A stretch of 64,000 bases of DNA from the NCBI GenBank assembly GCA_951406725.2, contig OX597823.1, forward strand, positions 109,554,001 to 109,618,000, written 5' to 3'. Each line of letters opens with the position of its first letter. Position 1 is the first letter of the stretch. A program made the position numbers and the translations under genes. This DNA comes from Octopus vulgaris. Taxonomy: Eukaryota. The notes beneath the pieces were generated by a model, which was given only the letters and a program-made list of their open reading frames with translations, ran no database searches and was not told the origin of the DNA. Below, piece after piece: positions 2,256 to 59,390 of this stretch.

Positions 2256-2673
2256 GGCGTCGAGTTGGCAGAATCGTTAGCACGCCGGGCGAAATGCTTA
2301 GCGGTATTTCGTTTGCCGCTGCGTTCTGAGTTCAAATTCCGCCGTGGTCGAGTTTGCCTTTCATCCTTTCGTGGTCGATTAAATAAGTACCAGTTACGCA
2401 CTGGGGTAGACATAATTGACTTAATCCGTTTGTATGTCCTTGTTTGTCCTCTCTGTGTTTAGCCCCTTGTGGGTAATAAAGAAATAGGTATTTCGTCTAC
2501 CGTTACGTTCTGAGTTCAAATTCCGCAGAGGTCCACTTTGTCCTTCATCCTTTCGGGGTCGATTAAATAACTACCAGTTACGCACTGGGGTCAATATAAT
2601 CGACTTAATCCGTTTGTCTGTCCTTGTTTGTCTTCTGTCTTTAGCCCCTGGTAGGTAGTAAAGAAATGGGTAT
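2256..2673 (+). mobile_element. tRNA-derived SINE family A, dimer (full unit plus headless second unit)
   Basis: Box A-like GGCAGAATCGTTAG, box B-like GAGTTCAAATTCC, central GCCTTTCATCCTTTCGGGGTCGAT..AAGTACCAG domain (Meta/MESC-like from memory), tail AAAGAAATAGGTAT; more than 20 related units in the window. Confidence 0.9.
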
Positions 2674-20812: not shown

Positions 20813-21720
20813 AGTGAGGTGGCAGAAATGTTAGCACGCCGGGCGAAGAATTTCGAAGTATTTCGTCTGTCTTTACGTTTTGAGTTGAAATTCAGTCGAG
20901 GTCGACTTTGCCTTTCATCCTTTCGGGGTCTATTAAATAAGTACTAGTTACGCACTGCGGTCGATGTAATCAACTTACTCCTCATTTTTGTCCCCTTATG
21001 TTTAGTCCCCTGTGGGCAATAAAGAAATAAATATTATCGATTCTGAGGGTAGTGAGCTGGCAGAAACGTTAGCACGCCGGGCGAAATGCTTAGCGGTATT
21101 TCGTCTGCCGCTACGTTCTGAGTTCCAATTCCGCCGAGGTCAACTTTGCCTTTCATCCTTTCGGGGTTGATTAAATAAGTACCAGTTACGCACTGGGGTC
21201 GATATAATCGACTTAATCCGTTTGTCTGTCCTTGTTTGTCCTCTCTGTGTTTGGCCCCCTGTGGGTAGTAAAGAAATAGGTATTTGAAGGCGGCGAACTG
21301 GCAGAAACGTTAGCACGCCGGGCGAAATGCGTAGCCGTATTTCGCCTGCCGTTACGTTCTGAGTTCAAATTCCGCCGAGGTCGACTTTGCTTTCCATCCT
21401 TTTGGGGTCGATTAAATAAGTACCAGTTACGCACTGGGATCGATATAATCGATTCAATCCGTTTGTCTGTCCTTGTTTGCTCCCTCTGTGTTTTGCCCCT
21501 TGTGAGCAATAAAGAAATAAGAAACTTTAGCACATCGTGCGAAATGCTTTGCGGTATTTCATTTGTCTTTACGTTCAGAGTTCAAATTCCTCCGAAGTCG
21601 ACTTTGCTTTTCATCCTTTCGGGGTTGATAAATTAAGTACCAGTTGCGTACTGGTGTCGATCTAATCGACTGCCTCTCCCCTCATCCAAAATTTCGGGCC
21701 TTGTGCCTAGAGCAGAAAAA
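20813..21720 (+). mobile_element. Head-to-tail cluster of four SINE family A units
   Basis: Heads near 20813, 21050 and 21288, and a truncated head at ~21520, each followed by the central domain. Confidence 0.9.
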
Positions 21721-45317: not shown

Positions 45318-46340
45318 GGTTGAAGGGAGCGAGCGAGTAGAACCGTGAACGTGCCGACCAAAATGCTTTGCAGTATTTCGTCTGCGATCGACTTTGCGTT
45401 TCATCTTTTCGGAGTCGATAAAATAAGCTCCAGCCGTGTACTGGGGTCGATGTAATTGCTGTCCTTGTGAAATTTATGTCCTTGTGACAAAATTTGAAAC
45501 CAATATTTACGCGGTCGAATGCAGCGAGCTGGCAGAAACGTTAGCACGCCGGGCGAAATGCTTAGCGGTATTTCGTCTGTCGTTACGTTCTGAGTTCAAA
45601 TTCTGCTGAGGTCAACTTTACCGTTCATTCTTTCGGGGTCGATAAATTAAGTACCAGTTACGCACTGGGGTCGATATAATCGACTTAATACTTTTGTCTG
45701 TCCTTGTTTGTCCCCTCTGTGTTTAGCCCCTTGTGGGTATTAAAGAAATAGGTATTTCGTCTGCCGTTAACGTTCTGAGCTCAAATTTCGCTGAGGTCGA
45801 CTTTGCCTTTCATGCTTTCGGGGTCGATAAATTAAGTACCAGTTACCCACTGGGGTCGATGTAATCGACTTGATCCCTTTGTCTCTCCTTGTTTGTCCCC
45901 TCTATGTTTAGCCCCTTGTGGGCAATAAAGAAATAAGAAACGTTAGTACGCCGGGCGAAATGCTTAGCGATATTTTGTGCATCTTCATGTTTTAAGTTCA
46001 AATGCAACCAAAGTCTATTTTGCCTTTCACTCTTTCGGGGTCGATGAAATAATTAGCAGTTGAACACTAAATTCGATGTAATCGATTTAGCACCTCCCCG
46101 AATTTGCTGGCTTATGCTAAAATTTGAAACTGATTTTTTGGGATTGCATAAGGCTGTGACCTGGCTGAATGATAATTGCATCGGGAAAAATGTTTAGCAG
46201 CATTTTTGTCAGTCTTTCCGTTCTGAGGTCGACTTTGCTTTCATCATTTCGTTATCAATAAGAAAAGTACGAGTTGAACACTGATATCGATGTAATAGAC
46301 CTTGTCCCAAATTGCTGGCCTTGTGCCAAAATGCGAAGCC
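45318..46340 (+). mobile_element. Cluster of about five SINE family A units of mixed age
   Basis: Repeated central domains near 45400, 45625, 45810, 46025 and 46240. Confidence 0.88.
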
Positions 46341-47337: not shown

Positions 47338-47970
47338 TATCTATTTCTTAATTATCCACAAGGGGCTACACACAGAGGGAACAAACAAGGACAAACAAAC
47401 GGATTAAGTCGATTACATCGACCCCAGTGCGTAACTGGTACTTCATTTATCGACCCCGAAAGGATGAAAGGCAAAGTCGACCTTGGCGGAATTTGAACTC
47501 AGAACGTAACGGCAGACGAAATACGGCTACGCATTTCGTCCGGCGTGCTAACGTTTCTTATTTCTTTATTGCCCACAAGGGGCTAAACATAGAGGTGACA
47601 AACAAGGAGAGACAAAGGGATCAAGTCGATACATCGACCCCAGTGCGTAACTGGTACTTAATTTATCGACCCCGAAAGCATGAAAGGCAAAGTCGACCTC
47701 GGCGAAATTTCCGCTCAGAACGTAGCGGCAGACGAAATACCTATTTCTTTATTACCCCCAAGGGGCTAAACATAGAGGGGACAAACAAGGACAGACAAAA
47801 GTATTAAGACGAATATATCGACCCCAGTGCGTAACTGGTACTTAATTTATCGACCCCGAAAGAATGAAAGGCAAAGTCGATCTCAGCAGAATTTGAACTT
47901 AGAACGTAACGGCAGACGACATACTGCTACGCATTTTGCCCGGCGTGCTAACGTTTCTGCCAGCTCGTAT
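47338..47970 (-). mobile_element. SINE family A trimer
   Basis: Three reverse-complement units showing both recurrent junction types (~47555 and ~47740). Confidence 0.9.
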
Positions 47971-58930: not shown

Positions 58931-58982
58931 TTTGCCATAAAGGGAATTTTCAGCAAATATACGAGATAAACCTGAAGACATA

Positions 58983-59083
<101 letters not shown>

Positions 59084-59105
59084 ATATGTATGTATGTATA
59101 TATAT

Positions 59106-59149
<44 letters not shown>

Positions 59150-59153
<4 letters not shown>

Positions 59154-59356
59154 AATGCAGCACGGATTTTTGTCAGTGAACAGGTCGCGGATTTTAGCGA
59201 CGAAAATATTTTGACAAATTAAACTTAAATGTTGGAGTGAATCGAACGGCTTTTGTGTGTTTCTTAAATGGCTTATAAACACCTTCCACGCTGCAATTGT
59301 TTTCGTTTCAGCACACGATCTCAGATCAAATTACTTGCTATGCGAGTACATCTCCG

Positions 59357-59358
<2 letters not shown>
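59150..59358 (+). mobile_element. Short element embedded in (TA)n, probable Penelope-like pLTR fragment
   Basis: Unique ~210 bp segment with (TA)n on both sides, carrying a hammerhead motif. Confidence 0.55.
59169..59218 (+). ncRNA. Minimal type I hammerhead ribozyme motif, G3-C8 core variant
   Basis: Stem I TTTGTCA/TGACAAA, core GTGAACA plus G, stem II GTCGC/GCGAC, GAA, palindromic stem III AATATT, U17. Confidence 0.75.

Positions 59359-59390
<32 letters not shown>

What the first reader, a model, noticed from the sequence alone, without database searches (positions are those of the whole stretch)
59169..59218. Atypical hammerhead ribozyme with a swapped G3-C8 core, hidden in a (TA)n tract
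Seen: TTTGTCA-GTGAACA-G-GTCGC-GGATTTTA-GCGAC-GAA-AATATT-T-TGACAAA folds as a complete type I hammerhead with a perfect 7 bp stem I, 5 bp stem II and palindromic stem III. The core reads GUGAACA instead of CUGANGA. Established: hammerhead positions 3 and 8 form a Watson-Crick pair, so C3G plus G8C is compensatory. Minimal hammerheads with palindromic stem III occur in Penelope-like elements and can cleave as dimers. Inference: this is a natural covariant ribozyme family that CUGANGA-based searches would miss. The UUU cleavage triplet predicts slow cleavage.
Basis: partly seen in the sequence, partly recalled or inferred. Interest (0 to 1): 0.85.

Follow-up and report, generated by a model that had tools for sequence, protein, structure and literature searches.

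The report
Retrotransposon hammerhead with swapped core pair
This short repeat, in what is likely an octopus genome, is the end repeat of a Penelope-like jumping gene and carries a hammerhead RNA motif whose central C-G pair is swapped to G-C in thousands of copies, while sister elements carry C-G or U-A there; it likely cuts its own RNA slowly, which is untested.

Summary
The motif is real at 59169-59218. It lies in a solo pseudo-LTR (59155-59359) of a young Penelope-like element (RT plus C-terminal GIY-YIG), with over 6,000 segments in a 2.8 Gb, likely octopus genome. G3-C8 is the family state (93 of 100 listed copies). Sister families carry the same fold before the homologous ORF start with C3-G8 or U3-A8; the 3-8 pair holds in 15 of 15 aligned rows and stems I-III covary. 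The swap is therefore natural covariation. Cleavage is untested. Insertions come from uncut RNA: 32 of 78 copies start at a likely capped start site, 0 of 78 at the cut. A young sister subfamily spreads with C at core position 9. Cutting is thus likely slow and dispensable for most insertions. Natural U3-A8 and engineered C3G/G8C are published; six searches found no natural G3-C8, but Lunse 2017 was not readable. Two to three phage hammerheads also show G3-C8, and the scan noted G3-C8 candidates earlier in two other Penelope-like elements (unchecked). Verdict: new variant of a known kind.

The parts
59155..59359 (+). Solo pseudo-LTR of a Penelope-like element (family A), long (tailed) form
   Evidence: 99-100% identical dispersed copies with the same ends; same segment flanks an RT + GIY-YIG ORF in L035 and L031
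59169..59175 (+). Hammerhead stem I, 5' strand
59176..59182 (+). Core positions 3-9, GUGAACA, with G3 (59176) and C8 (59181)
   Evidence: family state in 93 of 100 listed copies
59183..59183 (+). Extra G between position 9 and 10.1
   Evidence: G in all 15 aligned rows; an extra base here is typical of Penelope hammerheads (PMC4209133)
59184..59201 (+). Stem II (5 bp, closed by G10.1-C11.1) and loop II
59202..59211 (+). G12 A13 A14, palindromic stem III (AAUAUU) and U17; predicted cut after 59211
   Evidence: cut site inferred from hammerhead numbering
59212..59218 (+). Hammerhead stem I, 3' strand
59268..59359 (+). Start of the element's ORF (first 30 codons); copies end about 31-35 or 91-94 nt into it (two inferred RT start sites, about 60-nt tail)
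   Evidence: ORF continues in L035 and L037; 3' ends fall in two clusters, 28 and 49 of 78
58980..59149 (.). (TCTA)n/(TA)n target tract upstream
59359..59387 (.). (TA)n target tract downstream

Best explanation
The stretch is a minimal type I hammerhead motif in the pseudo-LTR of a Penelope-like retrotransposon, with a natural G3-C8 pair in place of C3-G8; it likely self-cleaves slowly after 59211, predicted to need a second copy to form stem III and perhaps the element's own protein. Shown: element anatomy, copy number, the fold's covariation across families, and that nearly all insertions were copied across an uncut site. Inferred: transcription starts about 15 nt before stem I and gives a capped RNA (cap, hammerhead, ORF). 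The RT-endonuclease nicks (TA)n DNA and starts copying 31-35 or 91-94 nt into the ORF, usually through the intact hammerhead up to the cap. In a minority of read-through or paired RNAs two hammerheads would share the AAUAUU palindrome and cut, trimming tandem transcripts to unit length or removing the cap. Selection on that step kept a Watson-Crick pair at 3-8, while being weak enough to let single-mutant intermediates pass.
For: Element. Families B and C were found by protein homology, not by the motif, and carry C3-G8 and U3-A8 cores before the homologous ORF start; 3-8 pair formed in 15 of 15 rows (C-G 7, G-C 4, U-A 4); 9 of 13 pairs change on both sides; 90.8% of cells paired against 29-56% when slid. 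Between-family identity is 0.96 in the other core positions against 0.28-0.38 in loop II and flanks (partly built in, see full report). In family A only positions 3 and 8 of the core differ from the consensus, and both change to a pair. C3G/G8C is active when engineered: partial rescue in an anole Penelope-like hammerhead (PMC11167929) and the only rescuing core double mutant in a pairwise scan (PMC9901934). Uncut capped template.
Against: No cleavage assay and no RNA-end data. Copies that begin exactly at the cut are under 1% (56 against 7,865 intact). After removing 19 of the type made by stem-I fold-back, 37 remain against 24 and 27 at the two neighbouring positions and 85 at another: at most a weak excess. 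A young family-B subfamily with open frames of 1,311-1,312 codons carries C at position 9 and a stem I mismatch, so a likely impaired core can spread. The predicted minimum-energy fold pairs G3 with U17, an inactive form. The intermolecular stem III is barely stable (-0.2 kcal/mol). In the anole element hammerhead mutants did not affect insertion in vitro.
Confidence: 0.7

Rival explanations
1. The motif is a hammerhead descendant kept as a folded structure (protein-binding or RT-positioning element, or part of the internal promoter), with negligible cleavage in vivo.
For: Insertions are copied across the uncut site; family B spreads with C9; hammerhead cleavage was dispensable in vitro and no RNA ends were seen at the cut for the anole element (PMC11167929); Naiad elements lack canonical hammerheads yet reach high copy numbers (PMC8557442).
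Against: The 3-8 pair belongs to the active fold (crystal structures cited in PMC9901934) and is kept in three different forms; a DNA promoter role would not predict that.
Confidence: 0.2
2. The ribozyme is efficient and central: it cuts both pseudo-LTRs, the unit-length RNA circularises, and the re-ligated circle is the template for reverse transcription.
For: Model proposed in PMC4209133; long copies run through the motif into the 3' UTR, which a re-ligated circle would also give; a tandem array of short copies exists (L042).
Against: 32 of 78 copies stop just upstream of stem I, mostly with an extra G (17 of 21). That fits a capped, linear, uncut RNA; a circle has no such end.
Confidence: 0.08
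3. The G3-C8 state is a chance double change in a dead ribozyme, amplified with a successful master copy.
For: All family A copies descend from few masters, so thousands of copies count as one event.
Against: Both family A subfamilies keep perfect stems and every other core base while loop II differs; family C independently holds U3-A8. Two changes landing on exactly the paired two of 11 core positions, and complementary, is roughly 1 in 165 by simple counting (my estimate).
Confidence: 0.02

Closest known systems
Minimal type I hammerheads of Penelope-like elements (Cervera and de la Pena 2014, PMC4209133)
   Same: In the pseudo-LTR; short palindromic stem III, predicted dimer; extra base between 9 and 10.1; G10.1-C11.1; frequent U17; a U3-A8 variant is described in Schistosoma Cercyon elements.
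   Different: G3-C8 core; the extra base is G where their consensus has H; three pair types within one clade in one genome. No G3-C8 or octopus case in the text and supplement file searched (one file could not be searched).
Hammerhead of the anole Poseidon element PAc (PMC11167929)
   Same: Penelope-like hammerhead near the ORF start; two internal RT start sites defining a tail; AT-rich targets; uncut RNA as main template; C3G/G8C partly active.
   Different: There G3-C8 was an engineered rescue, here it is the natural state. Here the motif lies wholly in the 5' UTR, 57 nt before the ORF, and the tail is about 60 nt rather than 30-40.
Natural core variants of Perreault et al. 2011 (PMC3088659)
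   Same: Natural covariation at 3-8 recorded as U3-A8.
   Different: Section 8 names no natural G3-C8 (supplementary figures not seen).
Nematis-type C-terminal-endonuclease Penelope-like elements (PMC8557442)
   Same: RT then CX3CxxC linker with a short spacer, then GIY-YIG with CCHH; inverted truncated partner copies; (TA)n targets.
   Different: RT motif B differs from the Nematis rows shown; no tree was built, so the clade is not assigned.
Non-LTR retrozymes (bioRxiv 10.64898/2026.07.22.740005)
   Same: Type I hammerhead in a short non-coding repeat related to pseudo-LTRs.
   Different: The window copy is a solo 5'-truncated insertion of a coding element, not a tandem array.

Membership tests
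Hammerhead ribozyme, type I | Three-way junction with stem I closing the ends | tested here: met
Hammerhead ribozyme, type I | Core U4 G5 A6 A9, G12 A13 A14, A15.1-U16.1, G10.1-C11.1 | tested here: met
Hammerhead ribozyme, type I | Watson-Crick pair between positions 3 and 8 | tested here: met
   G3-C8; three pair types over 15 of 15 rows
Hammerhead ribozyme, type I | Literal consensus C3 and G8 (a descriptor convention rather than a functional requirement) | tested here: not met
   0 of 100 listed family A copies are C3-G8
Hammerhead ribozyme, type I | NUH triplet before the cut | tested here: met
   UUU at 59209-59211
Hammerhead ribozyme, type I | Match to an Rfam hammerhead model | tested here: inconclusive
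   No match at E up to 10, but a canonical sister copy is missed too
Hammerhead ribozyme, type I | Stem I / loop II tertiary contact | not tested
   Loop II varies between families (identity 0.34)
Hammerhead ribozyme, type I | Site-specific self-cleavage | not testable with these tools
   Needs an in vitro assay; only contigs were available
Minimal Penelope hammerhead | Located in the pseudo-LTR of a Penelope-like element | tested here: met
Minimal Penelope hammerhead | Short palindromic stem III; unpaired base before stem II | tested here: met
Minimal Penelope hammerhead | Cleaves as a dimer | not testable with these tools
   Monomeric stem III impossible, intermolecular duplex -0.2 kcal/mol
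Penelope-like element with C-terminal endonuclease | Single ORF with RT and C-terminal GIY-YIG | tested here: met
   Pfam PF01541 E 1.8e-5; RT read from motifs and from homologue names; Pfam gave no RT hit
Penelope-like element with C-terminal endonuclease | Pseudo-LTRs, inverted truncated partner copies, optional tail | tested here: met
   L035 tandem layout; inverted partner in 10 of 30 loci; two 3' ends
Nematis clade | CX2-5CxxC linker with short spacer before the endonuclease | tested here: met
   compared by eye with Fig. S2 rows
Nematis clade | RT groups with Nematis in a tree | not tested
   No named reference set was fetched
Non-LTR retrozyme | Tandem non-coding array, hammerhead in each unit | tested here: not met
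   One copy in the window; an array occurs elsewhere (L042)

The most novel reading that the evidence does not exclude
One clade of octopus Penelope-like elements has run a natural mutagenesis of the hammerhead active site: G3-C8, U3-A8, C3-G8 and a C9 variant, each amplified to many copies from uncut capped RNA. The ribozyme is a tuned, slow off-switch that decaps or trims the element's RNA rather than a step of insertion, and U17 is what lets G3-C8 work by avoiding a G3-C17 trap. Rates measured across this series, set against copy number and age, would test directly what Penelope hammerheads are for.
Probability: 0.3. Interest if true: 0.72.

Novelty: new variant of a known kind. Interest (0 to 1): 0.52.

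Why it matters
The 3-8 tertiary pair was deduced from crystals and engineered double mutants; in the papers I could read, nature supplied only U3-A8. Here G3-C8 is the fixed state of a high-copy element, beside sisters with the other two pairs, which is direct evolutionary support for the active fold. It shows that CUGANGA descriptors undercount hammerheads, and it offers a natural allelic series for the open question of why Penelope-like elements keep slow ribozymes that insertion does not seem to need.

Tried and rejected
Rfam: no hammerhead hit for the window, the canonical sister L209 or two phage loci; uninformative. Sequencing runs: no RNA holder listed on record; 23 rows, all contigs. 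Laying 4 runs showed pseudo-LTR cover in all four, but no splice joint and no pile-up of ends; contigs cannot show ends and repeats were skipped, so this says nothing on expression, splicing or cleavage. A genomic trace of cleavage: 56 copies start at the cut against 24, 27, 85 and 16 at control positions (patterns not fully comparable); of 20 loci inspected, some were internal substitutions, duplications or stem-I fold-backs: inconclusive. Spliced or trans-spliced leader as source of the extra G: rejected, since bases before the G are not shared. U17 as an obligatory partner of G3-C8: weakened, since phage L394 has C17 and L310 has A17 and U17 occurs in family C and some family B copies. Metagenome pattern: 0 of 120 loci passed the fold filter. 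Retrozyme array: rejected for this copy. One protein search failed on frame and was not repeated.

Full report
Observation. The described sequence is present. Stem I is 59169-59175 with 59212-59218, the core GUGAACA is 59176-59182, an extra G follows, stem II is 59184-59188 with 59197-59201, then GAA, the palindrome AAUAUU (59205-59210) and U17 (59211). Folding recovers stems I and II (-15.4 kcal/mol, z -2.41, 7 of 200 shuffles as good; pair probabilities 0.68-1.0 in 116- and 203-nt contexts). A descriptor that allows any Watson-Crick 3-8 pair finds this single site in the window and none in 60 block shuffles. Stem III cannot close in one molecule, and two copies pair only weakly (-0.2 kcal/mol). 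The minimum-energy fold extends stem I with a G3-U17 wobble, which is not the active form.

What it sits in. The window is G000:C10:109554001-109618000 of a 2.8-Gb genome. The best named protein relative is from Octopus vulgaris, so an octopus is inferred. 59155-59359 is a dispersed repeat: 40 scored of 915 candidates gave near-full-length matches at 99-100%, and an exact 22-mer from it occurs 6,764 times (control 0; inverted partner copies count). In 10 of the 30 loci fetched, an inverted partial copy lies just upstream. Longer copies extend upstream into a GIY-YIG coding region. L035 shows a truncated 5' repeat, an ORF starting inside it, RT, a CX3CxxC linker, GIY-YIG, a long 3' UTR and a 3' repeat (Pfam PF01541 E 1.8e-5, no Pfam RT hit). 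This is the layout of Penelope-like elements, including (TA)n targets and an optional tail (PMC8557442). The linker resembles the Nematis rows of that paper's Fig. S2; no tree was built. The window copy is a solo pseudo-LTR, with the hammerhead 14 nt after its start and the predicted cut 57 nt before the ORF's ATG (59268).

Is G3-C8 the family state? A pattern leaving positions 3 and 8 free matched 6,291 times; 93 of the first 100 listed are G3-C8 and none is C3-G8. Two subfamilies differ in loop II but keep core and stems. These copies amount to one evolutionary event.

Covariation between families. A search with the ORF's first 200 residues found sister families without using the motif. Family B (34-35% identical, with open frames of 1,311-1,312 codons) has the same fold before its ORF start with C3-G8, but C at position 9. 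Family C (about 33-40%) has U3-A8 in 4 of the 6 family C loci that reach the core; one has U4 changed and one is truncated. A pattern excluding G3 matched 12,016 times against 1,094 for its control and added an older B form and a family D, both fully canonical; D continues into a B-like ORF start. Over 15 hand-picked natural copies, the 3-8 pair holds in 15 of 15 (C-G 7, G-C 4, U-A 4), 9 of 13 pairs change on both sides, and 90.8% of cells pair against 29-56% when slid. Stem I beyond three pairs is poor outside family A (77% paired). Between-family identity is 0.96 in the remaining core, 0.75 in stem II, 0.41 in stem I, 0.34 in loop II, 0.28 upstream and 0.38 downstream. Caveats: 9 of the 15 rows came from the core pattern and one from that, so their core invariance is partly built in (no pattern forced 3 and 8 to be complementary); the rows stand for four families, not 15 events.

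How the element copies itself. Among 78 segments taken in order along contig C1 (the first 78 of the 100 listed), 3' ends fall in two clusters about 60 nt apart (28 and 49 of 78), 31-35 and 91-94 nt into the ORF. This matches the two internal RT start sites and tail shown for the anole element PAc (PMC11167929). 5' ends cluster within six bases around the repeat's start (32 of 78) and none lies at the predicted cut. Of 21 distinct copies that begin at the A one base before that start, 17 have a G where the element has a pyrimidine (26 rows, less 2 duplicates and 3 that start further up; loci not randomly chosen). I read this as a reverse-transcribed cap (inference). Genome-wide, 7,865 matches read through the cut and 56 start at it; 19 of those have the form expected from fold-back on stem I, leaving 37 against 24 and 27 at the neighbouring positions and 85 further on. 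So templates were almost always uncut.

Mechanism. Shown: anatomy, covariation, copying across an uncut site. From papers: C3G/G8C partly restores cleavage in the PAc hammerhead, which needs protein and is not required for insertion in vitro; the G-C swap was the only rescue within the CUGA region in a full pairwise scan (PMC9901934); minimal Penelope hammerheads were inactive as monomers and weak as dimers (PMC4209133). Inferred: slow, dimer-dependent, perhaps protein-aided cleavage after 59211 in a minority of transcripts, trimming read-through RNA or removing the cap. Because the 3-8 pair belongs to the active fold, keeping it in three forms argues for selection on catalysis. The C9 subfamily suggests that selection is weak enough for impaired cores to spread, which would explain how a double transversion was reached. 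PMC3884650 reports, data not shown, that G3-C8 works better with G17 than with C17; U17 here may ease a G3-C17 trap, but it is not obligatory (below).

How rare is G3-C8? In viral contigs a G3-C8 pattern has about 610 holders, and 3 of 120 fetched pass a full-fold filter (L310 and L394 convincing, L368 doubtful); the C3-G8 pattern has about 6,400 holders, and 91 of 128 pass. That puts G3-C8 near 0.3% of such hammerheads: rare, not unique. In metagenomes 0 of 120 passed. The scan's own notes list two G3-C8 candidates behind Penelope-like RT genes in other genomes; I did not check them.

Literature seen. PMC4209133: parts 1-2 of 4 and supplement passages (one file not searched); natural U3-A8 only. 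PMC3088659: section 8 and passages; natural U3-A8; supplementary figures not seen. PMC8557442: passages, section 11, a supplement search and part 54. PMC11167929, PMC8495972, PMC9901934, PMC3884650, PMC6765202, PMC6155905, PMC6962438: passages. bioRxiv 10.64898/2026.07.22.740005: part 1 of 5. Searches gave no report of a natural G3-C8 core or of these octopus motifs. Lunse et al. 2017 on Penelope-associated variants is not held (only its reference line seen); its large alignment could contain G3-C8 rows, which limits the novelty claim. The hammerhead numbering and the NUH rule are recalled in part. The labels family A-D are mine.

Verdict. It is a Penelope-type minimal hammerhead with a natural G3-C8 core, backed by a three-state covariation series in one genome: a new variant of a known kind, activity untested. 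Interest 0.52.

Noticed in passing
L107, L110, L112-L115 near 1360; L208, L220 at 1501: The young family B subfamily, the one with open frames of 1,311-1,312 codons, has C at core position 9 and an A-C mismatch in stem I, whereas older B copies (L209) are canonical: possibly an impaired ribozyme in an active element.
   Followed up: partly
L310:61-85 and L394 (viral contigs): Complete-looking type I hammerheads with G3-C8 and long stem III in phage contigs, with A17 and C17.
   Followed up: partly
L042:1746-3084: Tandem array of eight short family A pseudo-LTR segments separated by (TA)n, a retrozyme-like arrangement that would put G3-C8 motifs side by side.
   Followed up: no
L151, L154, L187, L188, L191, L192, L197: 7 of 78 segments share identical 5' and 3' junctions: a non-autonomous derivative (inverted pair) that has spread as a unit; its direct copy lacks the 5' strand of stem I and G3.
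   Followed up: no
L037:1335-1358, L013:1477-1500: Just upstream of the pseudo-LTR start, long copies have a branch-point-like CTAAC, a pyrimidine run and AG, like a 3' splice site, overlapping an initiator-like start; Drosophila Penelope has an intron ending at stem I.
   Followed up: partly
copies listed: An extra G before the element's start in 17 of 21 copies, likely a reverse-transcribed cap.
   Followed up: partly
window 2303-2673, 20820-21520, 45567-45935, 47342-47924: Tandem units of 184-241 bp that look like one short interspersed repeat family.
   Followed up: no
L033:2550-3020 (-): Fragment of another Penelope-like endonuclease with a long, Neptune-like linker.
   Followed up: no
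L113:1495-3550: The family B ORF holds a long Asn-rich low-complexity insert in its N-terminal half, absent from family A.
   Followed up: no
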